Shown: positions 2,105-37,594, counted from the first letter of the stretch. The stretch: 64,000 nt of DNA from an uncultured Acidimicrobiales bacterium (GCA_963794615.1 CAWCEP010000010.1:43221-107220), one strand, 5' to 3'. The notes: generated by a model from the sequence alone, not told the origin. A program made the numbers and translations.

Positions 2105-2227
2105 GAACAGAAACCGCCGGCCCGAAGGTTGGCGGTTTCTTCATTTCGAGGGGTGGCGGAGAGTCAAAGACTCGTCGCCACATCCAACAATGGGCTCTCA
2201 TGAAGACTGCGGACTTCTTTGGGATGG
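2105..2227. repeat. direct repeat copy A (candidate distal att site of the ssrA-associated island)
   Basis: About 122 bp align with 37115-37236, with about a dozen mismatches and one gap. The shared core is 'gaacagaaaccgccggccc...ggcggtttcttcatttcgaggggtggcggagagtcaaagactc[g/a]tcgccac[a/c]tccaacaatggg'. Confidence 0.75.
2111..2145 (+). terminator. intrinsic terminator downstream of the GH12-like gene
   Basis: Hairpin 'aaaccgcc...ggcggttt' followed by the T-rich tract 'tttcttcattt'. It lies 55 nt after the stop at 2056. Confidence 0.65.
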
Positions 2228-2500
2228 TCACGAAACTTCCTGGCCATCCGGCCCAGGCGAGATGGATGTCTTTGGGACGCACCAAGTGCATTTTGGTCAC
2301 AAACAGCTCGAACACCTCTTGCGTCTCCCACACGTCGACCAAGCAGAGCCCATCTTCAGTCTTGGGCCGCCCAGCAAAACAGGACGCCAGTCGGGGTCGG
2401 GCCGCCGGTCAGGTAACCGAGATCCTCCTCGACAATGTCTTGGTAGTGTCTGAACGTGACGCCCCGGAAATCCGCTGGTACGGCGAGCGCCTCCGGAACT
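2228..2500 (-). pseudogene. frameshifted third paralogue of the ~100-aa ABM/Dabb-like family (see 2668..2967 and 17546..17845)
   Basis: The minus strand reads 'VPADFRGVTFRHYQDIVEEDLGYLTGGPTPTGVLFCWAAQ'. After a frame switch near nt 2355-2365 it continues 'EDGLCLVDVWETQEVFELF'. This is colinear with 'IDVPGVTIQQYD...GGLFHWVAKTDTGIRIVNVWASRDLFDEF'. No start codon is recognisable. Confidence 0.45.
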
Positions 2501-2667
2501 TCCGAACCCCACCGGTCGACTCGGAGCCAGCATCGCGCCAACGACCTGGTCCGTCGATTGGGACCAGGGTGGGAATCCCAGAAGCGAACCTGCCAAGAGG
2601 CTGCACTCCCGGGCGGAGCAGTTTCGGACGGTCCGGTCGTGCCCTGGCCATCCCGGCGGGAGTTCTG

Positions 2668-2967
2668 ATGGCAGTTGCAGTTCAGATCGACGTACCGGGT
2701 GTCACGATCCAACAGTACGACCTTGCCATCGAAGTCGCCGGGTTCTTGCGCGGGGGACCACTACCAGTCGGCGGACTGTTTCATTGGGTTGCCAAGACGG
2801 ACACGGGCATCCGCATCGTCAACGTGTGGGCCTCACGCGATCTATTCGATGAGTTCGCCGAGACGCAAGCCGCCATCATCGAGGAGATCGGGGTGGATCC
2901 GACATCCCTCGCGGTCCAGTTCTTGGATGTGCACAACTACCTTCGTGGTACTAACTGGCGGGACTAA
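2668..2967 (+). CDS. small (~99 aa) ABM/Dabb-like hypothetical protein, paralogue family member 1
   Basis: ATG at 2668 preceded by 'gggag'. 'MAVAVQIDVPGVTIQQYDLAIEVAGFLRGGPLPVGGLFHWVAKTDTGIRIVNVWASRDLFDEF' is colinear with the protein at 17546..17845. The long N-terminal extension of track ORF 2200..2967 is Arg/Pro/Ser-rich and implausible. Confidence 0.65.
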   Translation: MAVAVQIDVPGVTIQQYDLAIEVAGFLRGGPLPVGGLFHWVAKTDTGIRIVNVWASRDLFDEFAETQAAIIEEIGVDPTSLAVQFLDVHNYLRGTNWRD

Positions 2968-2971
2968 TAGG

Positions 2972-3697
2972 ATGCTTTCCGACACGCCGCGAACGCCTCA
3001 ACCTTCCCTGACTGAGGAGCACAGCCAGCTCACTCAGTCGCGGATCCGACAGGCAGCCATGCAGGTAGTCGCCCGCCGTGGGTTCGAAGCAACGGTCCTC
3101 GAGATTGCTGAGTTATCGGGCGTGAGCCCCCGGACCATCTTCCGCCGTTACAAGAGCCAGAGCGCCCTGATCGCGGCCACGCTACAGGACATGTTCGAGG
3201 CGGGGAACCGGCCGATCGACGGCCTGCCGCAACCCAGTGACGACCTCGACGGTTGGTTAGGGGTGTTGACGTTGACGCTGCACACGAGAGGCGTCCAGAT
3301 CTTCGGCGTGGTGATCTGGGACTTGCTGCAAGGGCCCGGGGCCGCTCTCCCTGCGGCGATTTCGGAGATCATCGAGGCCCAGGTCGTGTTCCGACGCCAC
3401 GCGGTCCAGCACTTCACCGAGGTCGCCTGGCAGGCCGCTGGAGGGAAAGGTCAAGCTCCCGACTCGCTGGCGTCGGAATTCACCGTGCAACTGTCGCCGT
3501 TTACGACCAGGACGCTAATGCTCGAGCGGGATCAAACCCCTGCCCAGATCGCTGCCCTGAGCGCCGATGTCCTGAAGACTCTCCTCGAGCGCGCCGTGGA
3601 CGAACGGAACCAGGCGCATCCCGATATCTCTGGCGCCGCGAGTGCAGGCGAGACCGAGAACCGAGCGGCCGCCGACAGAGGTCGAAAAGCCCATTGA
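2972..3697 (+). CDS. TetR/AcrR-family transcriptional regulator
   Basis: The N-terminal HTH 'IRQAAMQVVARRGFEATVLEIAELSGVSPRTIFRRYKSQSAL' is typical of TetR_N. The start is the ATG at 2972, in frame within track ORF 2675..3697. Confidence 0.85.
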   Translation: MLSDTPRTPQPSLTEEHSQLTQSRIRQAAMQVVARRGFEATVLEIAELSGVSPRTIFRRYKSQSALIAATLQDMFEAGNRPIDGLPQPSDDLDGWLGVLTLTLHTRGVQIFGVVIWDLLQGPGAALPAAISEIIEAQVVFRRHAVQHFTEVAWQAAGGKGQAPDSLASEFTVQLSPFTTRTLMLERDQTPAQIAALSADVLKTLLERAVDERNQAHPDISGAASAGETENRAAADRGRKAH

Positions 3698-3704
3698 GCG
3701 GGCG

Positions 3705-4409: not shown

Positions 4410-4602
4410 ACGTGCCGGTTGCGATCGGCTCCCTTGCCAGAGTCGAGGTTCAGTCGGGACAACCGCGCAAAATCGTGACTCCCGTTCTCCACGGGACGAT
4501 CTGGGCGCCCGAGTCAGGGCAATCCCGACCCGCTGGCCCTCTCAGGCCATCACGGTCCCGGCAGTAGAGCCGCTCGTCGAACGGGCATTGCACCGTTCCC
4601 AA

Positions 4603-5136: not shown

Positions 5137-5467
5137 TGCCACCCTCCTTGCCCAACCTGACTGAGTTCCCCCTGGCAGCATCAACCCGGAACCTGGCAGA
5201 AAGTAGAGGCTTTCGTCCCAGTCTCCCGATCGACTCGATGCCTCGACACGCGGAGCGCGGCACCCCCATGATCCCGCAAGACAGATCGCCGAATGAGGTC
5301 TGTAGAGGTCAACCGCGATGTTCTTCTTGGTGGCGCTGTGGCTCTCTGGCACACCTGTCGTCCAAAGACTCGTACGGGTTAGTCCCGGTCGGGTTGAAAG
5401 AGCGACGGGGTGCAGATCCGCTGTCGAACGCCCCGCCAAGGCCGTTCGATGGATCGCCTGCACCCCG

Positions 5468-5722
5468 TCAGCCGAATCCCCTGGGCGCGAAGGGGGCGTG
5501 TCCAGGAGACGGCCAAGGATCAAGGGATGCCCCGACGAGCATCCTGTTGTGCCAATCACGCTCCTCATTCTCGGTGAGTTCGTCGAGATAACGAAATGCG
5601 CTGACAGCGCCCGTGTAGCGAGCAACGATGCCCTCTCTGCGCAGTCCGGCGTCGGGGAGACCAAGCGCTGCCCGGGCATCGGCCAGCGCCTCGGCCAGAT
5701 ACCACTGGCCCTCTTGCTTCAT
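5468..5722 (-). CDS. hypothetical protein
   Basis: ORF starting 'MKQEGQWYLAEALADARAALGL...YLDELTENEERDWHNRML'. The composition is balanced and I recognise no family. Confidence 0.3.
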   Translation of the reverse strand: MKQEGQWYLAEALADARAALGLPDAGLRREGIVARYTGAVSAFRYLDELTENEERDWHNRMLVGASLDPWPSPGHAPFAPRGFG

Positions 5723-5739
5723 GCAGACAAGGTTATGAC

Positions 5740-6174: not shown

Positions 6175-6227
6175 GCCGTTCATTTGCGGGCGACCATCTT
6201 GTCGCTTCATTGCGCCACAATGTCTGT

Positions 6228-17845: not shown

Positions 17846-18406
17846 GCGAGGCCCGATCTGTCGTCTGACGACGTTTGCTGGGTGCGAGCCACGCCACGAT
17901 GACGGCTGAACAGCCCTATCGGCCAAGTGTCAGGGTGCGGCACTCGGCAGGGTCTGGGCCGAGCTTGGGAGTGTGCCCCTGCCCCCTCGTCGCCGGTTGG
18001 GAGTGTCATGCTTTGGCGACCAGCGCTATCCATTGTCCCATGTTGCGTTTTCCTGGGAAGTGAGCGTGCGGCGCGGGACGTCGGGTCAACGGCGTCATCA
18101 CCCTGTCGATTCGTCGTCTCGCCTTCATTGCCGCCGTGGACACGCCCAACCTCTGGGCATACCGTTGGTGTCGAGGTGGACGGGGGCAGCCGCCGCGATG
18201 GGGGGCAGGGACGCTTAGCCCAGTTCCTGCGCCCTCGTGGCGTTCGGGACGAAGGACCCTGGGAGCGGGATCACGCTGGGGGTAGCGTCACTCTTGGCCG
18301 ATCCCAAGGCGTACCCCCACGGTTCGGGATCGGCTGACGGGGTGCAGGCGACCCATCGAACGGCCATTGGCGGGGCGTTCGACAGCGAATCTGCACCCCG
18401 TCGCCT

Positions 18407-24835: not shown

Positions 24836-24989
24836 GAGTGCCGGGGGTGCATGCCGTCCCCATCGGAACCAGACGTGCCGTGGAGTCGGTACGGGGTATC
24901 GGTGCGTCTCGCGACACGGTCGAAACTCAGACTCCGCGATCGTACGACAAACTCCTGTGTCCTATTCGTGTCCTACGGGGGATCGGTGC

Positions 24990-26205
24990 ACCTCCAACAA
25001 CGTTCTGACCTGGTCCTTGTTGGCCAAAACGCTCTTGGGGTGTTCTCGAAATCCCGCGACCAGGGTGGAGACGGAACCGGCGGGGGAGTGACCACAGCTT
25101 AAGGAGCCGAGCCTCCACGCCCCGGTCACGAGGGGTGGATGGACGGCAACTTCGAGTGGCCGACCGAGCCAGCTGTTGAGCTTATTCCATGGGGAAACGC
25201 GCCAATGCGACGGCGGTGAGCGATGCTGGCTATCAACGATTCGCTGCGCGACTACGTCCAGGAACGACTCTCGGGCGTCCAGCACACCCCTGATGGTCGA
25301 CTCGTCGGTCCTCCCGGTCCGAAGTGGAACGGGAAGGGCAAACCCCATCGAGCTGATCGCCGATGGGTGAAAGGCTGGAGTCCCGAACAGATCTCCAAGC
25401 GCCTCAGGGTTGATTTCCCCGATGATGAGTCCATGCGGATCAGCCACGAGGCGATCTACCAGGCTCTCTACGTCCAAGGCCGAGGAGCACTCAAGCGGGA
25501 GCTGGTTGCCTGCCTCCGGACCGGCCGGGCCTTGCGAGTGCCCCGTTCCAGGTCACAGCAGAAAGCCTGGGGCCACGTCACGCCTGAGGTGATGATCAGT
25601 GAGCGACCCGCCGAGGCCGACGATCGTGCCGTCCCCGGCCACTGGGAAGGCGACCTCATCATCGGGTTGGAACGCTCGGCGATCGGCACGTTGGTGGAGC
25701 GGACCACGAGGTTCACTGTGCTGATCCATCTGCCCCGAGAAGACGGCTATCGACACAAGCACACCGTCAAGAACGGTCCCGCGCTCGCCGGTTATGGAGC
25801 GATCACGATGAAAGACGTGCTCGCCGCCAAGATGACCGCCCTCCCAGAGCAGCTTCGCCGCTCCCTAACTTGGGACAGGGGCAAGGAGCTCTCCCAACAT
25901 GCAGCATTCAAAGTCGAGACTGGCATACCGGTCTACTTCGCCGACCCTCGCAGCCCCTGGCAACGCGGCAGCAACGAGAACACCAACGGACTCCTGCGCC
26001 AATATTTCCCCAAGGGAACTGACGTCTCGCGCTGGAACGCCGAAGAGATCGATTCGGTTGCAGCCATGCTCAACAGCCGACCCCGCAAGACCCTTGGTTG
26101 GAAGACACCCGCTGAAGCCTTCGATGAGCATGTACATTTGCTCCAGAAAGCCGGTGTTGCCACGATCGATTGAACCTAGTCAATACCGGTCGAGCGTTGG
26201 GGGTC
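24990..26205 (+). mobile_element. IS30-family insertion sequence remnant (boundaries approximate)
   Basis: Contains the IS30 transposase catalytic region. A weak imperfect inverted-repeat candidate lies around 24,994-25,020 versus 26,180-26,205. The ends were not rigorously determined. Confidence 0.5.
25223..26173 (+). pseudogene. IS30-family transposase lacking an intact N-terminal HTH region
   Basis: IS30 hallmarks: 'WSPEQISKRL', 'MRISHEAIYQALYVQGRGALKRELVACLRTGRALRVPR', 'PGHWEGDLI', 'LTWDRGKE' and 'PWQRGSNENTNGLLRQYFPKGTD'. An in-frame TGA at 25217-25219 interrupts the conserved segment ('PWGNAPMRRR*AMLAINDSLRDYV'). Farther upstream, no continuous frame is found. Confidence 0.7.
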
Positions 26206-26544
26206 GGAGTGCGCCCGACTCCCGGCACTATCGCCCGTTCAGAAGTCGCCGTCGAGCCCCGGTAATCAGGGTGATACCGGTCACTGCTGTAACGCTGATG
26301 CTGGTTCTGTAGAGGGCCCGGTATCCGGCGGGGCGCAGCGTGACCGGTCTTGTCTGTCGTCCAAGGCGTTAGATGGCAGACGGCTTCATGCACTGCACCA
26401 GCCCAGCATCCAGCTGGAACCTACACGGCGGGTAGGTGATAGCGCGATATCTGAAACGTCTGAGCACGCCGTAAAGCATTCGCGACTCCCTCACTCCGCT
26501 CGCTTCAACCGCGGAATGTGGAACCGCAGCCAACATTGTCAGAC

Positions 26545-28188: not shown

Positions 28189-28350
28189 CGCCAGCACCTT
28201 TCGCCGATCTCCGTGGCACCCGCCATCACGAACGCCAAGAGGATAGGCAGGATCTGGACGACAACAGCGGACCACCACGCTCCCACACGGACAAGGCGCC
28301 CCGGAAGTGCGATCGGGCTGTTGGTCCGGAAGCCCTGTAGTCACACATAA

Positions 28351-28860
28351 TTGCTGCGAGAACGGGCGAGGCTCGTGCGCGTCCGCACCACGGCCAAGAA
28401 CCGGATTCGGGCGCAGATCGCCGATGAGGGCGTGCCGGCTCCGAGCCACGGCCTGTGGACCAAAGAGGGTGCCACCTGGCTCGACTCCTTGGACCTCTCG
28501 CCCATGCACCGCTGGGTGGTGACCGACTGCCAGGCGCTCATTGATGTCCTCCAATCACGGATCTCGCTGCTCGAGGCCGAGATCCGCCGCCAGGCGAAGC
28601 CCGACAAGCGCATCGACGCTCTCACCGCTATCCACGGCATCGGGCTTCTAAGCGCAATGACGCTTGTTTCTGAGATCGGGGACATCTCCCGCTTCGCCAC
28701 CGCCCGGAAACTCTGTGCGTGGGCCGGGATCATCCCCTCCATGCGCAACTCCGACCGGACTGTTCACCACGGCCACATCACCAGGGCCGGTCCGTCCGCC
28801 GTGCGCCACGTGCTCGCGGAGGCCGCGGAAGTAGCCATCCGCAAGGAGCCCTACTCTTGA
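28351..28860 (+). mobile_element. IS110-family transposase internal fragment (truncated at both ends)
   Basis: 'IDALTAIHGIGLLSAMTLVSEIGDISRFATARKLCAWAGIIPSMRNSDRTVHHGHITRAGPSAVRHVL' matches the Transposase_20 (HhH) region. The N-terminal DEDD domain is absent (a TAA lies directly upstream). The ORF stops about 50 aa short of a normal C-terminus. Confidence 0.75.
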
Positions 28861-29228
28861 CACCGGACCTTCTCATGGGCGGGGGTATGCGCTGCCCGTG
28901 AGCCCATCTGGGTCCGACCGGTTGTACCGGCTTCGGGTAACCGGGGACCGCGACCCGCGCAGTATTCGCGTCGGCTGAGTGATAGCGGATAGGTCAGGTC
29001 GAAGCCGAGTCCGTCACCTTCGGACTGACTCGGACTGGCAGACGGAGCGTCACCCATCAGGGTGATCCCAACCCTCTCACTCTCAACGGCCAAACACCCG
29101 GCTTGTGCCAAGCTGGGCACCGCGGCCGTCGCTCCCGAAGTCCAGAGGAATCCTCCCCCGTTCCTCGCTACGCTTCGGTCGCGCCTCCAGCCGGACGCGA
29201 GAGGCGCGTGAACCCAAGAGGGGGAAAC

Positions 29229-29861
29229 ATGTATCTGTTTTCACGACGGGCACACCTGAGCAATGCGGCAGGCGTAGAGTGGGCAACCAGCATCCTTGGT
29301 CGCGTCAACGAAGTGACCGGAAGTGGTACCCAGCTCTGGGCCAATGCCTTCTCGCCCGGATTCGGCACCGTCAGTTGGACCTCGTGGTGGGCGGACCTTG
29401 CTTCGCTCGAGACTGCCATGGCCAAGCTGCAAAGCGATGCGAAGTTCAACGCCTTGGCTGCTGATGGTGGTTCGTTCATCGACGGAATCGTCGACGATGG
29501 TCTGCTCCAGACCGTCTCCGGGGAGCCTGACCCTTCAGAGGCGAATGAAGCGCAGTACGTTGCCGGTGTCCAAGCTGTGTGTGCAGGAGGCAACATCGCT
29601 CGTGCCATGACCGTCGGCGTCGAGCTTGCTCAGAAGGGCGAGGCCATTTCCGGAGTGCGGACGCTGTTCATGCGGGCGATCACCGGGCCTTACGGCGCCG
29701 TGGGGTGGCTGAGCGCGTACCCGGACCTAGCTGCCTTCGAGACGGCGCAGGACAAGCTGGCCGTCGACCCGGGTTGGCTCACCCTGGTCGACAGCACCGA
29801 GGGCTGCTTCGTCGAGGATGCTGCTACGACCCAGCAGACCCTCTACACAAAGCTGGCCTGA
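29229..29861 (+). CDS. hypothetical protein with an internal two-fold duplication (~100 aa x 2)
   Basis: RBS 'agaggggg' upstream of ATG 29229. The halves align: 'FSPGFGTVSWTSWWADLASLETAMAKLQSD' versus 'ITGPYGAVGWLSAYPDLAAFETAQDKLAVD'. Confidence 0.6.
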   Translation: MYLFSRRAHLSNAAGVEWATSILGRVNEVTGSGTQLWANAFSPGFGTVSWTSWWADLASLETAMAKLQSDAKFNALAADGGSFIDGIVDDGLLQTVSGEPDPSEANEAQYVAGVQAVCAGGNIARAMTVGVELAQKGEAISGVRTLFMRAITGPYGAVGWLSAYPDLAAFETAQDKLAVDPGWLTLVDSTEGCFVEDAATTQQTLYTKLA

Positions 29862-29874
29862 TCGCAGCACTCGC

Positions 29875-29910
29875 CTGACGGGCCGGGTTCCGATGGACCC
29901 GGCCCGTCAG
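29875..29910. terminator. 14-bp perfect stem hairpin between convergent genes (no U-tract)
   Basis: 'ctgacgggccgggt-tccgatgg-acccggcccgtcag' lies between the stop at 29861 (+) and the stop at 30084 (-). Confidence 0.45.
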
Positions 29911-30083
29911 AAACGAGCCACAATGAGTTGGACATCGGTCGAGATAAGGGCCGCCAACCGTTGACCGCAATGTGTGGCTCGGCCCGTCCTGACGCCATCC
30001 GGACCATAACGTGGGGCCGGAGCGATCCTGAGCGTTTCGGGCAGGTTGGACACTCGAAGCAGCCCCGAGCATCACGGCCTGAG

Positions 30084-31058
30084 TCAGCTCCGTTGCACCC
30101 TCTCAAGTAGAGCCCCAGCGTCTTCGGTAAGGGAACGCACGAGCTGTGAGGCGGGCGCGACGGCGTTGACGAGGGCGACGGATTCCCCTGCATACATGCA
30201 CATCGCCTCGATGTGTCCGCTGACGTCTTGGGTCGGCGGTATCCAGGAGCGGCGCGGCACGGGAATCTCCCCGTCGGCGCCCCGCTTCGTCCCGACCACG
30301 TCGACGTCGATCGCCTCCACGGCATCGATCGCGCAGATGAGCACGCGGGCGCGTGGCGACGACGCGCACAGCGGACAGTCATTGAACGCGTCCGTGATGC
30401 GCGTGCTGTTTGCGCCTGCCGCGAGGATGGCGGCGACGTAGGCGGAATGCGCTGCCGATTCCTCTGTGGCGATGAATCGCGTCCCCATCCGCACGCCCGA
30501 GGCTCCTGCAGCAAGAGCGGCGGCGACACCGCGGGCATCGGCGATGCCTCCGGCGGCGAGGACGGGCACGTCGACGGCGTCGAGCACCTCGCAGAGCAGG
30601 GGCAGCAGGGGGCTGTCGCCGCGACAGTGGCCCCCAGCCTCGACACCCTGGGCGCAAACCATGTCGGCGCCCGCCCGGACCGCCGCTCGCGCCTCCCCCA
30701 CGGATCCGACCTGCCAGTTGACCAGCGCCCCACCCCTGTGGGCGATGTCGACCAGGTCCGGCCGGGGGTTGCTCCAGAAGAAGTCAATGACCCGCACTCG
30801 CGTTGCGGCATCCGCGACGGCGTCGACGTCGATGTCGTCGGTCAGGAAGCTCACCGCCAGCACGCCGTCGGTCTGTTGATGCATGTCGTCGAGATGCTGC
30901 CTAAGGGCTTCCCTCGCCATGCCGAGAGTGTTGATCGAGCCGATGCCTCCGGCCTCGGCGACCGCGACCGCGAGGCTCGGCGATGAAACCGTGCCCATCG
31001 GAGCCTGCTGGATGGGCGCCGTACATCCGACGAGATCGGTAAGACGCGTCCGGATCAT
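30084..31058 (-). CDS. nitronate monooxygenase / NMO-family FMN oxidoreductase
   Basis: 'PIQQAPMGTVSSPSLAVAVAEAGGIGSI' and 'VPVLAAGGIADARGVAAALAAGASGVRMGTRF' are typical of the NMO (2-nitropropane dioxygenase) family. Confidence 0.85.
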   Translation of the reverse strand: MIRTRLTDLVGCTAPIQQAPMGTVSSPSLAVAVAEAGGIGSINTLGMAREALRQHLDDMHQQTDGVLAVSFLTDDIDVDAVADAATRVRVIDFFWSNPRPDLVDIAHRGGALVNWQVGSVGEARAAVRAGADMVCAQGVEAGGHCRGDSPLLPLLCEVLDAVDVPVLAAGGIADARGVAAALAAGASGVRMGTRFIATEESAAHSAYVAAILAAGANSTRITDAFNDCPLCASSPRARVLICAIDAVEAIDVDVVGTKRGADGEIPVPRRSWIPPTQDVSGHIEAMCMYAGESVALVNAVAPASQLVRSLTEDAGALLERVQRS

Positions 31059-31473
31059 CCTGTGTCTGCCTCCCCGCCCTGGAGTGTCACCGCGGCGAAC
31101 TGTAGCGTCGCCCCCAGGTGGCCGCTTGGGTCGATGGTGTCAAAGGTCGCATGACCGACCGAGAAGTGCGGCCGTTCCCGACCGGGGTCTGAGAGCTTCG
31201 GCGAGGACCGTTGGGTAATCGGTGCAGGGGATACCGTGCGCGTTGTGTACCCATCTGGCCATCCTCAGGGATGCCGGAGTTGTGCACCTCGGCCCGGAGC
31301 TGAACCCGAACAGTATTCGCGGCCCCGGAACGATTTCGGATGGCCTGCCGCGCGACGAGCCTTCAAGTCCCCGAACTCACACAGCATTAGATGCTCTACC
31401 TCCAGCGTCGGCCCCAGCGGCACAAGACTCAGCGGACTAGTGTCGCTCGGCGATCGTGTTCCGAGGAGGCATC

Positions 31474-32292
31474 ATGGGCGGGCTTGAAGGTCTCTCAGCA
31501 TTTGTCACAGGCGGGGGAACCGGGATCGGCCTTGCCTGCGCCCAGGAGATCGTGGCGCAAGGCGGCACCGTTGCGATCGCCGGGCGCCGAGAGGACATCC
31601 TCCAGGACGCCGCTCGGGAGATCGGTGAGCGGGCCATTGCTGTGCAATGCGATGTGACCGACAACGATTCGGTCAAAAAGGCGGTGGAGACGGCCGTCGA
31701 ACACAACGGACCCCTCCGCCTGGCAGTGAACTGCGCATATCAGGCCATGGTCGGCAGTGTGTTGGCGACACCGCCAGACCTCTTTGCGATGACGGTCGAG
31801 AGCACTCTCACTGGCACGTATCGCTCTCTCCAGGCCGAGGCCAGAGCTATCCGAGAAGCTGGAGGCGGAAGCATCGTGAACGTCAGTTCGTTGGCTGCCA
31901 CCCATGTCAGCCGCTGGCAGTCGGCATACGGTGCCGCAAAGGCCGGAGTGGACATGCTCACTCGGGTTGCCGCTGACGAACTTGGGCCTCACGGCATCCG
32001 AGTGAACGCCGTTCTTCCCGGGCTGGTCACGACCGAGACAGCCTCACCACTGACCGAAGACGATGTGGTCCGGCAACAGTTTCTCGGCGAGATTCCTCTT
32101 GGGAGATTGGGCGATCCCGCCGACATCGCTCGCTGTGTCGGGTTCCTCCTGAGTTCAAACTCGTCTTACGTAACGGGCCAGTGCATCGGAGTCGACGGCG
32201 GCCAGTCTTTGAGGCGACTTCCAGATATCGGGTATCTCTTTCACAGTTTTGTCCCCGACTTCTTTGCAGAAGGTGAGCCCGGGGCTCCCTGA
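31474..32292 (+). CDS. short-chain dehydrogenase/reductase (SDR)
   Basis: 'AFVTGGGTGIGLA' (TGxxxGxG), 'NCA', and a catalytic 'YGAAKAG'-type motif. RBS 'gaggagg' upstream of ATG 31474. Confidence 0.85.
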   Translation: MGGLEGLSAFVTGGGTGIGLACAQEIVAQGGTVAIAGRREDILQDAAREIGERAIAVQCDVTDNDSVKKAVETAVEHNGPLRLAVNCAYQAMVGSVLATPPDLFAMTVESTLTGTYRSLQAEARAIREAGGGSIVNVSSLAATHVSRWQSAYGAAKAGVDMLTRVAADELGPHGIRVNAVLPGLVTTETASPLTEDDVVRQQFLGEIPLGRLGDPADIARCVGFLLSSNSSYVTGQCIGVDGGQSLRRLPDIGYLFHSFVPDFFAEGEPGAP

Positions 32293-32709
32293 TCTTGACC
32301 GTAGGAAGCCGTCCGGGAAGAAGCCGATCCCGACGGGTCGGATATCGCTCCCGCGACGGGGCTAAGGACGCACGGTACTCGGGGGTATACGTGCCCGATG
32401 TCTTCCTCTGCCTCCGACAGGTTGCACCGAAGTCGGGTAACCGGGCCGATTGGCGAACAACGCAGTTTCTGCGTCGCTGAACATTTCCGGGCGGCTCCCC
32501 TTGGGGCTCCCTATCCGGCGACGGGGCGACATTGGGGGTGGATCCGGACCTCGTCGGCATTGTCTTTCTGACATCACAGGCGCCGGACAATGAACTCCAT
32601 CGACAGCTATGCGCCAGGGTCCGATCCCGTTTTCGGACTAATGGCCCTGTGACCGCCGTCCCTGGGTTGTCAACATAGAAGCGGGCCGCTAGGAGGACGG
32701 CCGAGGAAG

Positions 32710-33174
32710 GTGGGTCTGGTGACGATGACGAAAACAACGCTACCCAGCCATCGGTGGGGGGACCCACAGTCACGATCCCTGCGGCCTCTCAACGAGAGAT
32801 CGTCGTTCGGCAAACGCCACGTCGCCTTGGCGTGTCTCCTCCTGGGCGTCGTCTTCGCTGGGATCTACTTCTTCACCGCTGAGTTCGGTGGTGTTGTAAA
32901 CACCTATAGCGCAACTATTGACGAGATCAACCCGGTCGGATATAGCCAGCTCGCGGTATGGGTCGAGGTGAAAAATCTCGGAAGCTCCTCGGGGACGCCA
33001 ACATGCCGGATCCAAGTGAACTCACCCGACGGGTCCGTCACCGGTGCGTGGACCCAAGAGGTCACCAGCCCCATCCTCGGAGGATCGGAAACCGACTTCG
33101 AGTTTACGATTCCGGTCACGACCAGTGGCGCAAACAGCGTGACGGCTGGCGCCTCGAATGTGAGTTGTCAGTAG
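32710..33174 (+). CDS. membrane-anchored hypothetical protein (N-terminal TM, beta-rich ectodomain)
   Basis: TM 'VALACLLLGVVFAGIYFF' followed by 'LAVWVEVKNLGSSSGTPTCRIQVNSPDGSVTG'. Confidence 0.55.
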   Translation: MGLVTMTKTTLPSHRWGDPQSRSLRPLNERSSFGKRHVALACLLLGVVFAGIYFFTAEFGGVVNTYSATIDEINPVGYSQLAVWVEVKNLGSSSGTPTCRIQVNSPDGSVTGAWTQEVTSPILGGSETDFEFTIPVTTSGANSVTAGASNVSCQ

Positions 33175-33371
33175 TTGGTGCTGGAACACACTGGGGAACA
33201 CCGCTCGTCGCATCGCCACGGCGTTGCTGACCGTACGGTAATCGGGGATCCCGGTCGCATCGTGTATCCACCTGGACCGCGCTGGAGTGTCGTTTGGGCG
33301 CTATGGATTGAAGCCAATGCGGAGTCCATGGGCCATCCGGTATCACGCGTTTCGGGTTCTCGGGTTCTCGG

Positions 33372-34298
33372 TCAGCTGGCTTCTTGAAAACGCTGCCAAC
33401 GAACCTCAAGGAGCTCCGGATTCGGGTGAGCAGCCCTACGATTGGGGAGCTGGATCCTCTGGCCGTCGATCTCCTGCAGTGTGTGCCGAAGCGTGGGCCC
33501 ATCGAGTTCTTTCATGACATCAGGGCGGACCCCCACCTCGTACTTGGGGTTAATGCCGAAGATGTCTGCGTCATAGGCGGCGTGATGGATCTTGCACATG
33601 GCGATGCCATTGGTGACGATGGGCTGACCGCCTTCTGCGTCGGCCAGGACGTGGGCTGCGTCGAGAAGACGCGTGTGACGAAGACGGCAGATAGAGCATT
33701 GGTTCTCGTAGGCGAGAAGCACGCGTTGTCGAAACAGGGGCTGGTGCAGGCGGGCCTTCACGACCCGTTCGGCGTAGGAGCGGACGAGTTCGGGGTCCTC
33801 GTCTAACAGGTCGTGACGGACTCGGAGGGCCTCCTCGGAAAGAGAGACCACAAATTGCTGCGCGTACGACTCCTCGTCAGCCAACCAAACCGGATAGATG
33901 GGGTAGTAGACACCTGACGCGACCCCTTGGAACCAGATGAGCGGCAGAGCAAGCGTCATGGCCAGGCGAAGGGCGCGATTGTCGGGATGCGTCGGATCGA
34001 CGCCCCGCCACTTATAGCGGATGAACCCATCGGGTCCGACCTCGTCGTCGTAGGGGCGTTGGCTCGGATCCGACGCGAATACGGTGCGGAAGCTGAGCGC
34101 GGCTTGAAGCCGGCGGGGCTTCCAGATCCCTTGCTGGGTGGCCATGAGACGAAGAGGCGACCCCTCGAAACTGAAGGGCGTGAGGTCGTCCTGGCGCACC
34201 AAGGCTTGTCCCCTCGTCGCCAGCCCGTCGAGATAGGCGAAGGCGGCTGCCCGTAGGCGCCCATCAGTCTCTGCATCGAAGGCCGGCATCGACAGCAA
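33372..34298 (-). CDS. HNH endonuclease with SRA/PUA-like N-terminal domain (candidate modification-dependent, type IV-like restriction enzyme)
   Basis: The C-terminus 'CSICRLRHTRLLDAAHVLADAEGGQPIVTNGIAMCKIHHAAYD' is the HNH_2 pattern. The N-terminus 'QQGIWKPRRL...PYDDEVGPDGFIRYKWRGVDPTHPDNRALRLAM...PLIWFQGVASGVYYPIYPVWL' is reminiscent of the SRA/YDG architecture. Confidence 0.65.
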   Translation of the reverse strand: MLSMPAFDAETDGRLRAAAFAYLDGLATRGQALVRQDDLTPFSFEGSPLRLMATQQGIWKPRRLQAALSFRTVFASDPSQRPYDDEVGPDGFIRYKWRGVDPTHPDNRALRLAMTLALPLIWFQGVASGVYYPIYPVWLADEESYAQQFVVSLSEEALRVRHDLLDEDPELVRSYAERVVKARLHQPLFRQRVLLAYENQCSICRLRHTRLLDAAHVLADAEGGQPIVTNGIAMCKIHHAAYDADIFGINPKYEVGVRPDVMKELDGPTLRHTLQEIDGQRIQLPNRRAAHPNPELLEVRWQRFQEAS

Positions 34299-34539
34299 TC
34301 TAGCTATCAGTGCCCCGACCTGGGAGTTGTCGATTGCGGGCAGCGATACACCCTCTTGCTATGAATGACCGGATCGGTGCCTCTGGCGCCCGCAATGTGG
34401 ACTCGATCGTGAAACGGACACGACGTGCGCCAGCGCGAGCATCCAGGGAAACGCGGACCGAATACCCCCTAGTCCCACGCGGGGTACGTCCAGCCTCTCC
34501 AAGGAAGGGGACGATCTCGACACCCCGGTTGGATCTTTC

Positions 34540-35367
34540 GTGCGCGCCTTGGCCGTGGATCTCGGTTTGGACCAAGACACGCCAGCCAACTACCGAACTC
34601 GTCGTCAGCTGCTCCGACTGTCGTTATGGGCGACGGGGGAGGGACTCGCCCTCGACCGAGAAGTAATCCTCGATCCCAGCACCGTCGATCGCTTCGCCGA
34701 GATGGCCCTGGCCAATGACCGTTCCCGAGCCACCTACCGAGCTGCGCTCCGCCGGGTAGGTCCCCTTCTCACTAAGCGTGCGCCGTGGGAGCCGCGTCCC
34801 GCGTCGCTGGCGCGCCGCCAGGTTGCCCCGCCCTACACCGCACCCGAGGTGCTGATTCTTCGCAAGGACGCCCTCGTCCAACCCACCGCCGCTCGCCGTA
34901 GAGCGGCACGCGCACTTCTGGCGCTGGGTCTCGGTACGGGACTCGATGGTCGCTGGGTGACCCAAGTGACTGCCCGTGACGTCCACGCGTCGAGTTCGGG
35001 GGTCGTGGTGGAAGTAGGGGCGCCCATGGGGAGGCCCGTGATCGCCCGTGCCGAGTGGGAAGAGGAGCTCATTGCCTTGGCGGAGACCGCAGGTGATGAG
35101 TTTCTGGTCGGCGGGTATTCCACCTCGATCCGTCGAACCGGGCACCTCACCGAGAGGCTGGTGGTGCCGACGGGCCATCCTCGACTGGCACCGGCGCGAC
35201 TGCGCTCGACCTGGCTCGTCACCCATCTGAGCGCTGGGACCCGGCTGCCCGAGCTGTGTCGAGCGGCGGGCTTGGAAGGTGTCACCGTGGTCTCGGACCT
35301 TCTCGAGTTGGTCGAGCCCCTGGACGTCGCATCGTCCACGGCCATGCTGCGAGGAATCCCACGGTGA
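34540..35367 (+). CDS. tyrosine-recombinase-like protein (catalytic residues not all recognisable)
   Basis: 'RALLALGLGTGLDGRWVTQVTARDV' is box-I-like. 'PARLRSTWLVTHLSAGTRLPELCRAAGLEGV' is box-II-like, but I could not locate the canonical His and Tyr. The stop overlaps the next start (GTGA at 35364-35367). Confidence 0.45.
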   Translation: MRALAVDLGLDQDTPANYRTRRQLLRLSLWATGEGLALDREVILDPSTVDRFAEMALANDRSRATYRAALRRVGPLLTKRAPWEPRPASLARRQVAPPYTAPEVLILRKDALVQPTAARRRAARALLALGLGTGLDGRWVTQVTARDVHASSSGVVVEVGAPMGRPVIARAEWEEELIALAETAGDEFLVGGYSTSIRRTGHLTERLVVPTGHPRLAPARLRSTWLVTHLSAGTRLPELCRAAGLEGVTVVSDLLELVEPLDVASSTAMLRGIPR

Positions 35368-37034
35368 CCCGAGCTCCGATCGACACGAGCGCGGGACGAC
35401 CGACGAGCTCAGCCGAGCTGAACATCGCTCGGCAGGTGATCCGGCGCTCCGGCCTCGTCGACATCTTGGCGCCGTGTATCGATGCCGAGGTCGGCCGCCC
35501 TCGCCTCCTCGGTCTTGAGGCCCTGTTGGTCGCGTTCCAGCTCAATGCCCTGCACCGCCACCATCAAGCGCATCTGGTCGAGGGGGCTCGGATCCTCAAC
35601 GCCCTCACCGACGATCAGCGCGCTGCGCTCTCGATCACGAACTGGGACCGTGACGAGACTTATGACCGGGTGGAACGGCTCTTCGTGAGGTTGTGTCAGG
35701 TTCTCGAATCTCACGAGGCCGGCATCGACTCCACGGGGTTCACCAACGAGCTCGCCCGAGCCGCCATTCCGAAGGAACTGCTGACGAGTCGATCGGTGGC
35801 GGTCGACGGCACCGACGTCGAAACCTGGGGCGCGCTGCGCGGCGCGTCGTTCACCGTCGAGCTCGACGGTGATGCGGCGGACACGCAACTCATCGATGAG
35901 GGAACCGCTTCGCCGTCAGCTAAGACGAAGGTGAAGACGGCCAAGGTATTCAACATCGGTACCGATGGGCGTAAGCGCTACACCGCCGACCCCGACGCCC
36001 GCGCCGGCCACCGATCGTCGACCGGCTCTCGCAACGCCGGACCGTATGTCGGATACGAGCTTCATCTCGCCGTGCAGACCCGAGATGTGCGCTGGACCAA
36101 TCACATCGACAAGACCACGCTCGGCGCCGAGGTCCCCGGCGTGATCACGACCTGCAACCTGGTGCCGGCCGGATCGCACCGGGGAGATGCCGTCGTCGGC
36201 GCCTTGATCGCTTCGAAGAAGTCCGTGTGTGACATCGACGACGTGATCTGGGACCCGGGCTACTCGTTGTGTCAGCCTGGCACCACCTCATACCCTCTCG
36301 CCCAGGCTGGGATCGAGCAGACTCTGGAGCTCGTGACCCACCAACGGGGCATCCGTCCCTTTGCCGGGGAGGCGCTTCTGCTCGACGGCCAGCTCTATTC
36401 CCCGTTGTTGCCGGCCGAGCTCCGTGACCTGGCGGCCCCGCCACGGTTCGCGACCGGGGCCTATCGGCGCGCCTATGAGGAGAAGTTCAATCGACGGGCC
36501 AGGTGGCGCCTGGTGCGCCACGCCGCTCCCGATGCAGATGGTGTCACACGCTGGCGCTGTCCGTTCTGTGCGGGGCTCCTCCGGAGTCGTCGGTTCCCGA
36601 GAACCATGCGACGCTCTCGCCAAGCACCCATGGTGGAGATCCCCGAAGGCGTGACGCAGTGCTGCTCTGGCATCTTGTCCGCCCCGCCCGCGGAACTTCC
36701 CATCACCCAGAAGATCCCGTTCGGCACCACCGCCTGGCGAATCTCGATGTACCGACGTCAGGTCGTCGAATCGGCCAACTCCGCGCTCAAGGGTGCATTC
36801 GCTGACCTGTCACGAGGATTCTTCCGGGTCTTCGGTCAGACCAAGATCTCCGTACTGCTCGGATTCACCCTGGCTGCCTACAACCTCGACCGCGTCCGCA
36901 GCTTCAGGGCCAAGAAGGCTGAAGAAGAGGCCAAGCCCGTCCGGAGAGCCAAACGACGGTTGGGTACGTGGAACGACTGCATCTCGAGAGATGCCGATGT
37001 CGTCCCGCCCAGTGCGACGGGGCCACCGGACTAG
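35364..37034 (+). CDS. DDE transposase-like protein (IS4/IS1182-type signature) with inserted Cys4 ribbon
   Basis: 'VAVDGTDVETW' (D1), 'YVGYELHLAVQ', 'VIWDPGYS' (D2), 'RRQVVESANSALKGAFADLSRGFFRVFGQTKISVLLGFTLAAYNLDRV' (E plus the C-terminal signature), and 'WRCPFCAG...CCSG'. The GTG start overlaps the upstream stop. Confidence 0.6.
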   Translation: MTRAPIDTSAGRPTSSAELNIARQVIRRSGLVDILAPCIDAEVGRPRLLGLEALLVAFQLNALHRHHQAHLVEGARILNALTDDQRAALSITNWDRDETYDRVERLFVRLCQVLESHEAGIDSTGFTNELARAAIPKELLTSRSVAVDGTDVETWGALRGASFTVELDGDAADTQLIDEGTASPSAKTKVKTAKVFNIGTDGRKRYTADPDARAGHRSSTGSRNAGPYVGYELHLAVQTRDVRWTNHIDKTTLGAEVPGVITTCNLVPAGSHRGDAVVGALIASKKSVCDIDDVIWDPGYSLCQPGTTSYPLAQAGIEQTLELVTHQRGIRPFAGEALLLDGQLYSPLLPAELRDLAAPPRFATGAYRRAYEEKFNRRARWRLVRHAAPDADGVTRWRCPFCAGLLRSRRFPRTMRRSRQAPMVEIPEGVTQCCSGILSAPPAELPITQKIPFGTTAWRISMYRRQVVESANSALKGAFADLSRGFFRVFGQTKISVLLGFTLAAYNLDRVRSFRAKKAEEEAKPVRRAKRRLGTWNDCISRDADVVPPSATGPPD

Positions 37035-37114
37035 CTGCGTCAGCTCCAGCAGCAACAGGAAACCCGTCCCGCGGGATTTCTGCGCGCCCGGACACGCGAA
37101 TCTGATCCGTTCCG

Positions 37115-37236
37115 AACAGAAACCGCCGGCCCTCGGGCCGGCGGTTTCTTCATTTCGAGGGGTGGCGGAGAGTCAAAGACTCATCGCCACCTCCAACAAT
37201 GGGTTTCATGAACACTCCGGGCTTCATTTCATGAAC
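37115..37236. repeat. direct repeat copy B (candidate ssrA-proximal att site)
   Basis: Aligns with 2105-2227 and ends 10 bp from the ssrA 3' end at 37246. Confidence 0.75.
37121..37148. terminator. bidirectional intrinsic terminator (ssrA on the minus strand, transposase gene on the plus strand)
   Basis: Perfect hairpin 'aaaccgccggccc-tcg-ggccggcggttt' with T-tracts on both strands ('tttcttcattt' on plus, 'tttctgttc' on minus). Confidence 0.7.
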
Positions 37237-37245
37237 ACCCACGAG

Positions 37246-37594
37246 TGGAGGTGGCGGGAATCGAACCCGCGTCCTTCGGCTTCTCATCGGGCCTTCTCCG
37301 AGCGCAGCCGGCAGCTAGATCTCGGGGCCCTCGCCGCCGCCGGCGAATTCGAGGGCCCCCAACCGACCTTTGGTGTCCCCGGCGGCCAATCGGTGGAACC
37401 GCTCGGGTAAGCCCCGCTGAATGACGCCCGCTACCGGCCTGCAGGGCTGAGACCGGACGGACGGGCTACTTATTAAGCAGCCAGCGCGAGCTGAGGCTCG
37501 GCATTTGTTTTTTGTTCCGGCTCTTTAACGTGGTTCCGGAGACCACGGCTCGCTTCTCCCGAATTGACGACCAAAGTCGAAACCGATCACCCCC
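37246..37594 (-). ncRNA. ssrA: tmRNA (transfer-messenger RNA)
   Basis: The 5' end 'GGGGGTGATCGGTTTCGAC' pairs with the 3' end '...GGGTTCGATTCCCGCCACCTCCA'. That gives a 7-bp acceptor with a G3:U wobble, a T-arm 'GCGGGTTCGATTCCCGC', and no encoded CCA. The tag reading frame is '...AAT GCC GAG CCT CAG CTC GCG CTG GCT GCT TAA TAA' = '...NAEPQLALAA**'. It lies directly downstream of smpB. Confidence 0.92.

What the first reader, a model, noticed from the sequence alone, without database searches (positions are those of the whole stretch)
2105..37256. 35-kb AT-richer island bracketed by ~120-bp imperfect direct repeats, with the right repeat 10 bp from the ssrA 3' end
Seen in the sequence:
- 2105-2227 and 37115-37236 are direct repeats of about 122 bp. 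There are about a dozen mismatches plus one gap, concentrated in a hairpin loop and the right third.
- Copy B ends 10 bp from the mature 3' end of tmRNA (37246).
- Sequence composition changes abruptly there: AT-richer codon third positions to the left, very G+C-rich core genes to the right.
- The interval holds IS debris, pseudogenes, a nuclease and a recombinase/transposase pair at the ssrA-proximal end.

Established knowledge: ssrA is a classic integration hotspot for genomic islands.

What is unusual: the duplicated segment is not the 3' end of ssrA itself. No second copy of 'ggttcgattcccgccacc' exists in the window. The duplicated segment is instead the ssrA trailer plus terminator. This suggests integration into the terminator/trailer region rather than into the RNA gene.
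Basis: partly seen in the sequence, partly recalled or inferred. Interest (0 to 1): 0.7.

Follow-up and report, generated by a model that had tools for sequence, protein, structure and literature searches.

The report
Transposon ends beside the tmRNA gene
The two 120-base repeats are real, but they are the right-hand ends of an undescribed transposon family that lands four bases after the tmRNA gene in Acidimicrobiales, not a duplicated tmRNA trailer left by one 35-kb island.

Summary
The repeat is confirmed: 2099-2220 and 37108-37230, 91% identical over 96 nt, and the only two copies in the window. Copy B ends beside ssrA (tmRNA, minus strand, 3' end at 37246). G+C rises there from about 0.62-0.65 to above 0.70.

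G+C does not change at copy A, so the low-GC DNA runs off the window's left edge.

The repeat is not a private ssrA trailer. It is a module of a bidirectional terminator hairpin plus a 35-nt palindromic hairpin. The module sits at the right end of a mobile element. That element encodes a tyrosine-recombinase-fold protein with no catalytic tyrosine and a 556-aa DDE transposase distantly related to IS1182. Both belong to large families annotated only as hypothetical.

Related elements have terminal inverted repeats and 4-bp target duplications (L008, L009). In 6 of 9 sampled loci their right end lies 4 nt past ssrA. Others lie beside tRNA-like 3' fragments. Close relatives have a different or empty ssrA flank (L014, L016).

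Copy B belongs to an element bounded by inverted repeats at 25036 and 37241. Copy A is a truncated right end abutting another left-end-like sequence.

The parts
2099..2220 (+). Copy A. A solo, truncated right-end module: terminator hairpin 2109-2140, palindromic hairpin 2150-2184, and the first half of the terminal spacer. It lacks the about 50 nt upstream of hairpin 1 and the terminal 17 nt of the right inverted repeat.
   Evidence: module profile hit 2102-2220, E 9e-35
2220..2246 (+). Tentative left-inverted-repeat-like sequence (TGGGATGGTCACGAAAC...) directly abutting copy A, as at the right-end/left-end junction in L002.
   Evidence: nhmmer with the left-end profile, E 0.05, window 2218-2246; alignment A6; 20 of 29 positions match the L002 left end by my own count on that alignment
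24973..25035 (-). Probable former ssrA trailer, displaced by the insertion. It contains GTTGGAGGTGCACCGA, as found 28 nt after ssrA in L014.
   Evidence: Best-scoring tile of the whole window against the L014 trailer: score 33 against shuffles 14.6 +/- 2.1, 0 of 1000 reaching it; exact 16-mer
25036..25125 (+). Left terminal inverted repeat (TGGGGTGTTCTCGAAATCCC) plus about 90 nt of conserved subterminal sequence.
   Evidence: left-end profile E 7.7e-25. The same sequence is in L002 and L008, where no IS30 gene follows it (for L002; for L008)
25220..26170 (+). IS30-family transposase gene, either cargo or a nested IS. No right inverted repeat of its own was found.
   Evidence: NCBIfam transpos_IS30, 233.5 bits; Pfam rve; inverted-repeat search
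28351..28860 (+). IS110-family transposase C-terminal fragment.
   Evidence: Pfam Transposase_20, 1.1e-19; 93% identical to L014 6644-7149
33239..33350 (+). Left boundary of the conserved 4-kb core. It is shared with L005 and with the internally deleted L002 copy. It sits where L009 has its left inverted repeat and may be a degenerate one.
33375..34358 (-). HNH endonuclease-like gene, similar to a phosphorothioated-DNA restriction endonuclease. It is part of the 4-kb core in the window, L005, L009 and L020.
   Evidence: Pfam HNH_2, 6e-6; NCBIfam PT-DNA_restrict, 1e-19
34420..35367 (+). Tyrosine-recombinase-fold protein (about 313 aa in relatives) with no catalytic tyrosine. In the window the first canonical start codon is at 34540, which would drop the conserved first 40 residues.
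   Evidence: No Pfam or NCBIfam hit; at least 512 homologues; AF2 pLDDT 86.6; Foldseek XerA/Cre/XerH, E 5e-7; no conserved C-terminal Tyr in 42 sequences, with R178 and R262 invariant; ORF list
35364..37034 (+). 556-aa DDE transposase-like protein, distantly related to IS1182/IS5. Its GTG start overlaps the stop codon of the upstream gene.
   Evidence: At least 368 close homologues, all 'hypothetical' with no Pfam domain; 1976 clusters at 50% identity; invariant D148, D297, E469 with RRQVVESxNxxLK; weak IS1182/DDE_Tnp_1 hits in distant members; weak RNase-H-fold matches
37060..37241 (+). Copy B and its context, i.e. the right end of the element. It comprises a conserved 3' UTR (37060-37107), bidirectional terminator hairpin 1 (37118-37149), palindromic hairpin 2 (37159-37193, with CGCCACCTCCA ending at 37195), and the terminal spacer with two TTTCATGAACAC repeats ending ...AACACCCA at 37241 (right inverted repeat).
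37242..37245 (.). 4-nt spacer CGAG between the transposon end and ssrA. This is the position of the target duplication in L008 and L009.
37246..37594 (-). ssrA (tmRNA), tag AEPQLALAA, intact to the discriminator base. CCA is not encoded.
37654..38208 (-). smpB, the first core gene to the right.
   Evidence: Pfam SmpB on the identical protein; homologues

Best explanation
The 120-bp repeat is the subterminal right-end module of a transposon family specific to Acidimicrobiales. The basic element is about 4 kb: left inverted repeat, often an HNH gene, a Tyr-less tyrosine-recombinase-fold gene, an IS1182-related DDE transposase gene, about 80 nt of 3' UTR, a bidirectional terminator hairpin, a palindromic hairpin, and the right inverted repeat ...TTTCATGAACACCCA. 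Larger versions carry cargo between the left repeat and the gene pair.

Shown:
- The element has inverted repeats and 4-bp target duplications in relatives.
- It occurs at several kinds of site.
- In most sampled genomes its right end lies exactly 4 nt after the last templated base of ssrA, so the element's own terminator replaces the native ssrA terminator.
- In this window copy B is the intact right end of such an element. The clearest left end is at 25036 (12.2 kb), and the old ssrA trailer now lies just outside it.
- Copy A is the truncated right end of a second, neighbouring copy, joined head-to-tail to another left-end-like sequence at 2220.

Inferred:
- The DDE protein does the cutting and joining.
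- The Tyr-less recombinase-like protein is a DNA-binding partner. It would recognise the palindromic hairpin, whose right arm CGCCACCTCCA equals the last 11 nt of ssrA, and the ssrA/tRNA acceptor end, and so place the insertion.
- The 37 kb of AT-richer DNA is a mosaic built by repeated insertions and decay at this hotspot.
For: The module is part of the element.
- Window 33239-37241 is 87% identical to L005 4514-8492, in a locus with no tmRNA.
- L002 holds an internally deleted copy, with the left boundary fused to the transposase C-terminus plus the module.
- L008 and L013 carry the gene pair plus module away from ssrA.

Inverted repeats and target duplications.
- L009 has left end TGGGGTGATCACAAAAG and reverse-complemented right end GAGGTGTTCACAAAAG. 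Both carry the same departure from the family consensus, and both flanks are GGAG.
- L008 has left end TGGGGTGTTCATGAAAC and right end TTTCATGAACACCC, with both flanks CGAG.

Target.
- The gene pair reads toward ssrA, with a constant 8 nt from GAACA to TGG, in the window, L004, L007, L009, L012, L019 and L020.
- That is 6 of the 9 loci reached through the transposase or through the window itself.
- L013 abuts a tRNA-Lys(CUU)-like 3' fragment.

Presence or absence at ssrA.
- L014 (SmpB 95%) breaks exactly at 37246.
- L016-L018 have an empty site.

The proteins.
- Tyrosine-recombinase fold without a conserved Tyr.
- DDE motif and distant IS1182/DDE_Tnp_1 links.

The window itself.
- Left end at 25036.
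- Displaced trailer at 24973-25035.
- Left-end-like sequence abutting copy A.
Against: - In the window itself the flanks of the 25036 left end (CTCT) and the 37241 right end (CGAG) differ, so no target duplication proves a single insertion here. The close relative L004 has CTCT at its ssrA junction.
- The left boundary of the conserved 4-kb core (33239) shows no clear inverted repeat.
- No left end was found within 4-6 kb in L007, L012, L013, L019 or L020.
- Transposase identity between ssrA-linked copies tracks SmpB identity. Many ssrA-linked copies may therefore descend from one old insertion rather than from repeated targeting.
- The transposase model is poor (pLDDT 62.8) and its fold matches have E above 0.01.
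- A variant of the module follows ssrA in L015 without a transposon end. The module may therefore have been captured from a native trailer.
- The left-end-like match at 2220 is weak on its own (E 0.05).
- The DNA-binding and target-selector role of the recombinase-like protein is untested.
Confidence: 0.6

Rival explanations
1. One 35-kb island integrated by site-specific recombination into the ssrA trailer/terminator, and the two modules are attL and attR.
For: - The two copies are in direct orientation, and the recombinase-like/transposase pair sits at the ssrA-proximal end, as integrases do in tRNA/tmRNA islands.
- In L015 a module variant is the direct ssrA trailer, so an attB-like state exists.
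- L001 and L003 hold module copies next to degenerate ssrA-3'-like fragments, which resemble displaced att sites.
- The palindromic hairpin has the 11-9-11 layout of a recombinase core site (sequence).
Against: - The recombinase-fold protein has no conserved nucleophile tyrosine in 42 homologues.
- Composition does not change at copy A, and the gene to its left is as AT-rich as the interval.
- Copy A lacks the flank shared by all other copies upstream of hairpin 1.
- Copy A contains transposon-specific terminal spacer followed by a left-end-like sequence.
- The same 4-kb unit with sharp ends occurs elsewhere (L005, L002).
- L008 and L009 have inverted repeats plus 4-bp duplications, which are hallmarks of DDE transposition.
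Confidence: 0.12
2. The whole interval 2220-37241 is one giant transposon whose left end is the degenerate repeat at 2220. The left ends at 25036 and 33239 are internal relics of nested or older copies.
For: - A left-end-like sequence begins exactly where copy A stops, and the only intact right end to its right is at 37241.
- Family members carry variable cargo of 4 to at least 5.3 kb.
Against: - The 2220 match covers only about 30 nt at E 0.05 and lacks the 90-nt subterminal conservation seen at 25036.
- A trailer-like remnant lies just outside 25036, which fits a 12.2-kb insertion next to ssrA.
- The flanks at 2216-2219 (TCTT) and 37242-37245 (CGAG) do not match.
Confidence: 0.13
3. The gene pair and module are a long-resident, effectively domesticated part of the ssrA locus. 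The module would be the working ssrA terminator or processing signal. Copy A arose by segmental duplication or illegitimate recombination, not by transposition.
For: - Transposase identity among ssrA-linked loci matches SmpB identity pair by pair (68/66, 68/69, 64/66, 63/60).
- Both proteins are under strong conservation, with many invariant columns.
- On the minus strand hairpin 1 is followed by a T-run, so it can terminate ssrA.
Against: - Copies occur at non-ssrA sites with target duplications (L008), beside a tRNA-Lys fragment (L013), as a deletion derivative (L002) and as a second partial copy in L012.
- Relatives with SmpB 95% and 84% identical lack the element at ssrA.
Confidence: 0.1
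4. The module is an independent small mobile or dispersed element (MITE/REP-like), or a small RNA gene, that merely happens to lie near ssrA.
For: Solo copies of about 85-145 nt in unrelated contexts: window copy A, L001, L003 and L006. Hairpin 2 folds very stably (z = -5.7).
Against: - Low copy number: one exact core per GTDB genome, three in the metagenome collection, none in viral contigs.
- The solo copies have no inverted repeats or duplications of their own.
- Most copies are contiguous with the transposase gene.
- No Rfam family matches.
Confidence: 0.05

Closest known systems
tRNA/tmRNA-gene genomic islands integrated by tyrosine integrases
   Same: It sits at the 3' end of ssrA. The recombination genes lie next to the RNA gene. 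Variable AT-richer cargo lies beyond. Close relatives differ in what follows ssrA.
   Different: The junction is 4 nt after the gene, not inside it. No ssrA 3' segment is duplicated. The recombinase-fold protein lacks the nucleophile tyrosine. A DDE transposase, inverted repeats and 4-bp duplications are present.
IS1182 family / IS4-IS5 superfamily DDE insertion sequences
   Same: A D..D..E triad with an R-x3-E-x6-K-like motif. Distant family members give weak DDE_Tnp_1, DDE_Tnp_1_6 and IS1182 hits. There are terminal inverted repeats and short target duplications.
   Different: All scores are far below family cut-offs (best 49 bits against 270). A second conserved gene for a recombinase-fold protein is present. 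The right end is long and structured. The element carries cargo and shows strong site preference.
Tn7 and Tn7-like elements, which insert at a fixed distance downstream of a conserved gene by means of a dedicated target-selector protein (from my own knowledge)
   Same: It works alike in outline: a DDE transposon that lands in one orientation at a fixed distance just past an essential, conserved gene without damaging it, is then inherited vertically for long periods, and carries cargo.
   Different: No TnsA/B/C/D/TniQ-like domains were detected. The proposed selector would be a Tyr-less tyrosine-recombinase-fold protein. The target is an RNA gene end. The duplication is 4 bp, not 5 bp.
Tn3-family transposons with a tyrosine-recombinase resolvase (TnpI of Tn4430; TnpS/TnpT) (from my own knowledge)
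   Same: A DDE transposase gene is paired with a tyrosine-recombinase-fold gene in one element.
   Different: Those recombinases are catalytically active and resolve cointegrates at an internal site. The transposase there is the about 1000-aa Tn3 type. They have no ssrA specificity.
IS30-family targeting of its own inverted repeats (from my own knowledge)
   Same: A right end abuts a left end with a short spacer (L002, and probably at copy A). The targets all begin TGGRG, like the left end itself.
   Different: The inverted repeats co-vary with the gene pair, not with an IS30 gene (L009). The IS30-family gene in the window looks like cargo or a nested insertion.

Membership tests
tyrosine-integrase tRNA/tmRNA genomic island | Integrase with the catalytic R-H-R-Y residues, including the nucleophile tyrosine | tested here: not met
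   The fold is that of a tyrosine recombinase and both arginines are invariant. No tyrosine is conserved in the C-terminal half of 42 homologues.
tyrosine-integrase tRNA/tmRNA genomic island | Island flanked by direct repeats that contain the 3' part of the RNA gene | tested here: not met
   The 21-nt ssrA 3' end occurs once, even with up to 3 mismatches. No tmRNA or tRNA fragment lies near copy A.
tyrosine-integrase tRNA/tmRNA genomic island | Precise presence or absence of the whole island between relatives (empty site) | tested here: inconclusive
   Relatives break exactly at the ssrA end (L014) or have an empty ssrA flank (L016). None shows the state ssrA, one repeat, then the 893-2056 gene.
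DDE transposon (IS1182 / IS4-IS5 superfamily) | DDE catalytic triad in an RNase-H-like fold | tested here: inconclusive
   D148, D297 and E469 are invariant with a YREK-like motif. Distant members hit DDE_Tnp_1 and IS1182 below cut-off. Foldseek gives integrase cores at probability 0.9-0.99 but E above 0.01, on a model with pLDDT 62.8.
DDE transposon (IS1182 / IS4-IS5 superfamily) | Terminal inverted repeats | tested here: met
   L008 and L009 have matching left and right ends, co-varying in L009. The window has 25036 against 37241.
DDE transposon (IS1182 / IS4-IS5 superfamily) | Target-site duplication flanking the two ends | tested here: met
   CGAG/CGAG in L008 and GGAG/GGAG in L009. Not met in the window itself (CTCT against CGAG).
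DDE transposon (IS1182 / IS4-IS5 superfamily) | Score above the curated family cut-off (NCBIfam transpos_IS1182, Pfam DDE_Tnp_1) | tested here: not met
   Window protein 26 bits against 270. The best distant member scores 49 bits. The window protein has no Pfam hit.
REP / MITE-like dispersed repeat | Many copies per genome | tested here: not met
   Two copies in 64 kb. One exact core in each of three GTDB species genomes. Whole-genome profile counts could not be run.
Tn7-like transposons | TnsA/TnsB/TnsC plus TnsD/TniQ gene set | tested here: not met
   Pfam and NCBIfam scans of the genes of the conserved 4-kb core (33375-37034) and of the other larger ORFs selected between 25036 and 37241 give no such domains.
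IS30 family | Inverted repeats belong to an element whose only gene is an IS30-type transposase | tested here: not met
   The same left end occurs in L002, L008 and L009 with no IS30 gene. No right repeat follows the IS30 gene in the window.

The most novel reading that the evidence does not exclude
A previously undescribed class of site-specific transposon, in three parts.
- An IS1182-related DDE transposase works with a catalytically dead tyrosine-recombinase-fold protein. That protein acts as target selector by binding the acceptor-end DNA of the tmRNA gene (and tRNA-like ends), which the element mimics in its own palindromic hairpin.
- Insertion falls exactly 4 bp after the RNA gene.
- The element supplies a replacement terminator.

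It would be a protein-guided counterpart of Tn7 at attTn7, aimed at an RNA gene end, and a new fate for a tyrosine recombinase.
Probability: 0.35. Interest if true: 0.8.

Novelty: new variant of a known kind. Interest (0 to 1): 0.6.

Why it matters
Islands next to tRNA and tmRNA genes are normally explained by tyrosine integrases that cross over inside the gene. Here the same hotspot seems to be served by a different machine: a DDE transposase paired with a recombinase-fold protein that has lost its nucleophile.

The two protein families are large. The transposase has about 2000 clusters at 50% identity. The best-matching homologues listed in the searches carry either no name or 'hypothetical protein', apart from one recombinase-like homologue that JGI labels 'integrase', so the elements are largely invisible to current mobile-element finders.

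If the targeting model holds, it gives two things:
- a compact, orientation-specific system that inserts beside a universally conserved RNA gene without harming it;
- a testable example of a recombinase turned into a DNA-targeting subunit.

For annotation, long direct repeats next to ssrA need not be att sites.

Tried and rejected
- **Displaced ssrA or tRNA fragment beside copy A.** Rfam scan at E<=10 and a 21-mer search with 3 mismatches found none. Local alignment of the flank beyond copy A against the ssrA end was no better than shuffles.
- **Phage origin.** The core 19-mer is absent from viral contigs.
- **A third full module copy left of 25036.** Gapped local alignment was not significant (34 against 26.8 +/- 4.8). 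The short match there is better explained as an old ssrA trailer like that of L014.
- **Inverted repeats belonging to the IS30 gene at 25220.** Rejected. The same left end occurs without IS30 genes, and in L009 it co-varies with the right end next to ssrA.
- **The 93% match between L014 and window 28352-28854 as synteny.** It is an IS110 fragment.
- **An RNA-guide reading of hairpin 2.** Its right arm is complementary to the plus strand at the ssrA end. The one element at a tRNA-Lys-type site (L013) has a related hairpin region that does not match that target. This is n=1, so the idea is unsupported rather than excluded.
- **Sequence search of both protein profiles against PDB.** No hits at E<=1.
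- **Look-up of the source contig through the identical transposase.** Not on record, so the DNA left of the window could not be read.
- **Literature searches for such a gene pair or for ssrA-targeting DDE elements.** Nothing relevant was found.

Full report
**1. The observation**

The two copies align at 2099-2220 and 37108-37230. Identity is 91% over an ungapped 96 nt, followed by one gap and a more diverged tail. A profile built from five related copies finds only these two full hits in the window.

tmRNA lies on the minus strand at 37245-37594 with tag AEPQLALAA (Rfam 149.7 bits). Read from the sequence, the acceptor strand ends at A73 = 37246 and CCA is not encoded. smpB follows at 37654-38208.

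G+C is 0.60-0.66 from position 1 to about 37000 and 0.70-0.75 beyond. The right-hand discontinuity is therefore real. There is none at copy A: the DNA left of 2105 is as AT-rich as the interval.

No second copy of the ssrA 3' end exists, even with three mismatches. No tmRNA or tRNA fragment is detectable beside copy A.

**2. Anatomy of the repeat**

Each copy has two parts.
- Hairpin 1 is G+C-rich, with T-runs on both strands, so it can act as a bidirectional terminator (B: 37118-37149).
- Hairpin 2 is a 35-nt imperfect palindrome, GGGGTGGCGGAGAGTC-AAA-GACTCATCGCCACCTC (B: 37159-37193). It is very stable: -25.9 kcal/mol, z = -5.7.

The right arm of hairpin 2 with the two bases that follow it, CGCCACCTCCA (37185-37195), equals the last 11 nt of ssrA in the opposite orientation (read from the sequence).

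Copy B continues with a 46-nt spacer holding two TTTCATGAACAC repeats and ending ...AACACCCA at 37241. Then come CGAG and the ssrA end.

**3. The repeat elsewhere**

A 22-mer from hairpin 2 occurs once in each of three uncultured Acidimicrobiales genomes (L001-L003). None has a tmRNA within the 8-kb locus. A 19-mer finds three metagenome contigs (L004-L006) and nothing in viral contigs.

| Locus | What it holds |
|---|---|
| L004 | Same arrangement as the window (ssrA, module, transposase 3' end), 87% identity |
| L005 | Window 33239-37241 at 87% (HNH gene, recombinase-like gene, transposase-like gene, module); no tmRNA; different right flank |
| L002 | Internally deleted copy: about 105 nt matching window 33245-33350 fused to the last about 90 codons of the transposase, plus the module |
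| L001, L003 | Share only about 145 nt with each other |
| L006 | Truncated module after an unrelated gene |

The repeat is therefore not private to the ssrA trailer. It is the end of a discrete, movable unit, and solo fragments of it exist.

**4. The two genes**

Neither protein has a Pfam hit, and only the transposase gives a weak IS1182 signal. Both have hundreds of close homologues. These come almost all from Acidimicrobiales metagenome-assembled genomes, are named 'hypothetical protein', and have no Pfam domain.

*The upstream protein*
- The model is confident (pLDDT 86.6).
- It matches XerA, Cre, XerH, the Tn1549 integrase and lambda integrase over both domains (E down to 5e-7).
- In a 42-sequence alignment the two catalytic arginines are invariant (R178 in GLDGRW, R262 in RLRSTW). 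No tyrosine is conserved anywhere in the C-terminal half.
- In the window its conserved first 40 residues have no canonical start codon before 34540.

*The 556-aa protein*
- It has invariant D148 (AVDGTD), D297 (WDPGYS) and E469 within RRQVVESxNxxLK.
- A profile search finds 1976 clusters at 50% identity.
- Distant members give sub-threshold hits to DDE_Tnp_1, DDE_Tnp_1_6 and NCBIfam IS1182.
- Its structure model is poor (pLDDT 62.8). It gives only weak matches to retroviral integrase cores and Mos1.

I read it as a divergent DDE transposase of the IS1182/IS5 lineage. This is not proven.

**5. Ends, duplications and target**

The strongest evidence for transposition comes from two relatives.

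| Locus | Element | Left end | Right end | Flanks |
|---|---|---|---|---|
| L009 | about 4 kb (HNH, recombinase-like, transposase) | TGGGGTGATCACAAAAG | reverse complement GAGGTGTTCACAAAAG | GGAG / GGAG |
| L008 | 5.3 kb with a glycosyltransferase cargo gene | TGGGGTGTTCATGAAAC | TTTCATGAACACCC | CGAG / CGAG |

In L009 both ends share the same departure (CACAAAAG) from the family consensus (CATGAAAT).

Ten right junctions are summarised. The distance from GAACA to a following TGG is 8 nt in nine of them.
- In the window, L004, L007, L009, L012, L019 and L020, that TGG is the complement of the last CCA of the ssrA acceptor strand.
- In L013 it begins the complement of a tRNA-Lys(CUU)-like 3' half.
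- In L008 (and in L001's module copy), L003 and L005, it begins short sequences that resemble ssrA or tRNA 3' ends but are not genes.
- In L002 it begins another left end.

Of nine loci reached through the transposase or the window itself, six are at ssrA.

**6. Presence or absence at ssrA**

Loci reached through SmpB show that the site varies.

| Locus | SmpB identity to window | What follows ssrA |
|---|---|---|
| L014 | 95% | Matches the window up to exactly 37246, then entirely different DNA |
| L016-L018 | 84% | ssrA, its own terminator, then a GGDEF/EAL gene and other ordinary genes |
| L015 | 86% | A 30-nt spacer, hairpin 2 and hairpin 1, with no transposon end; the contig stops 150 nt later |

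The same spacer variant occurs in L001 and L003 next to the ssrA-like fragments. Whether the transposon captured a native trailer, or these are decayed transposon ends, cannot be decided here.

Against repeated independent targeting, transposase identity between ssrA-linked loci follows SmpB identity closely. That fits long vertical residence after few insertions.

**7. The window re-read**

- A clear left end with the conserved 90-nt subterminal region lies at 25036-25125.
- Just outside it, 24973-24999 is the best match in the whole window to the first 60 nt of the L014 ssrA trailer (score 33; shuffles 14.6 +/- 2.1; 0 of 1000).
- This fits a 12.2-kb element (25036-37241) inserted between ssrA and its former trailer.
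- Its flanks differ (CTCT against CGAG), so a simple single event is not shown. L004 has CTCT at its ssrA junction. A later replacement or recombination of the right end is possible (inference).
- Inside the element lie an IS30-family gene, a glycine-rich repeat protein, an IS110 fragment, nitronate monooxygenase and short-chain dehydrogenase genes, and the conserved 4-kb core.
- Copy A lacks the about 50 nt that all other copies share upstream of hairpin 1. It keeps the first half of the terminal spacer.
- Copy A then runs straight into TGGGATGGTCACGAAAC, which resembles a left end (nhmmer E 0.05 at 2218-2246; alignment). This is the head-to-tail arrangement seen intact in L002.

The two repeats are therefore paralogous right ends of two neighbouring elements. 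The AT-rich 37 kb is a mosaic that extends beyond the window.

**8. Mechanism**

Shown: the gene content, the fold, the missing tyrosine, the inverted repeats, the duplications and the junction geometry.

Inferred:
- The DDE protein catalyses transposition.
- The Tyr-less recombinase-fold protein binds the palindrome and the identical half-site at the ssrA end, and so fixes position and orientation.
- Hairpin 1 terminates both the transposase transcript and the ssrA transcript.

**9. Verdict**

What is there is best described as a new variant of a site-specific DDE transposon. I could not find it described in the held literature.

Noticed in passing
window 26422-27366 and 60720-61380: Six to seven tandem 129-bp repeats, four of them identical, lie inside a 669-aa glycine-rich ORF on the minus strand (26548-28554). 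They are 73% complementary to 126-bp repeats in a core-region gene at about 59133-61370.
   Followed up: no
window 5402-5475 and 18330-18404: Inverted repeats of 38 nt (97%) and 45 nt (89%) bracket about 13 kb of the interval. They may be the ends of another composite element or of an inversion.
   Followed up: no
window 28880-28945 and 32380-32445; L005 2462-2674; L014 7865-7929: A 66-nt direct repeat (73%) flanks the 3.5 kb that holds the monooxygenase and dehydrogenase genes. It recurs in two other loci, next to the IS110 fragment.
   Followed up: partly
window 34369-34540: The conserved N-terminal 40 residues of the recombinase-fold protein are in frame, but no ATG, GTG or TTG precedes 34540. 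The gene either uses an unusual start or is damaged.
   Followed up: partly
window 55970-56053 and 56000-59000: tRNA-Leu lies on the minus strand with a G+C dip to 0.65 just to its right. This may be a second small island at a tRNA gene.
   Followed up: no
L014 1509-1536; window 24973-24999: ssrA trailers carry TTGGAGGTGCACCGA about 30 nt after the gene. It is complementary to the tmRNA acceptor 3' strand and could pair with it in the precursor, as hairpin 2 does within itself.
   Followed up: partly
L012 667-1103: A second, partial copy of the transposase gene lies about 4 kb upstream of the complete ssrA-linked copy in the same genome.
   Followed up: no
L005 8493-8600 and L001 2859-2966: The right flank of the L005 element (TGGAGCTAACGGGAATGCTTTCGAACCCC...) is itself a repeated sequence. 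It occurs at 86% in another genome and is possibly the end of a further mobile element.
   Followed up: partly
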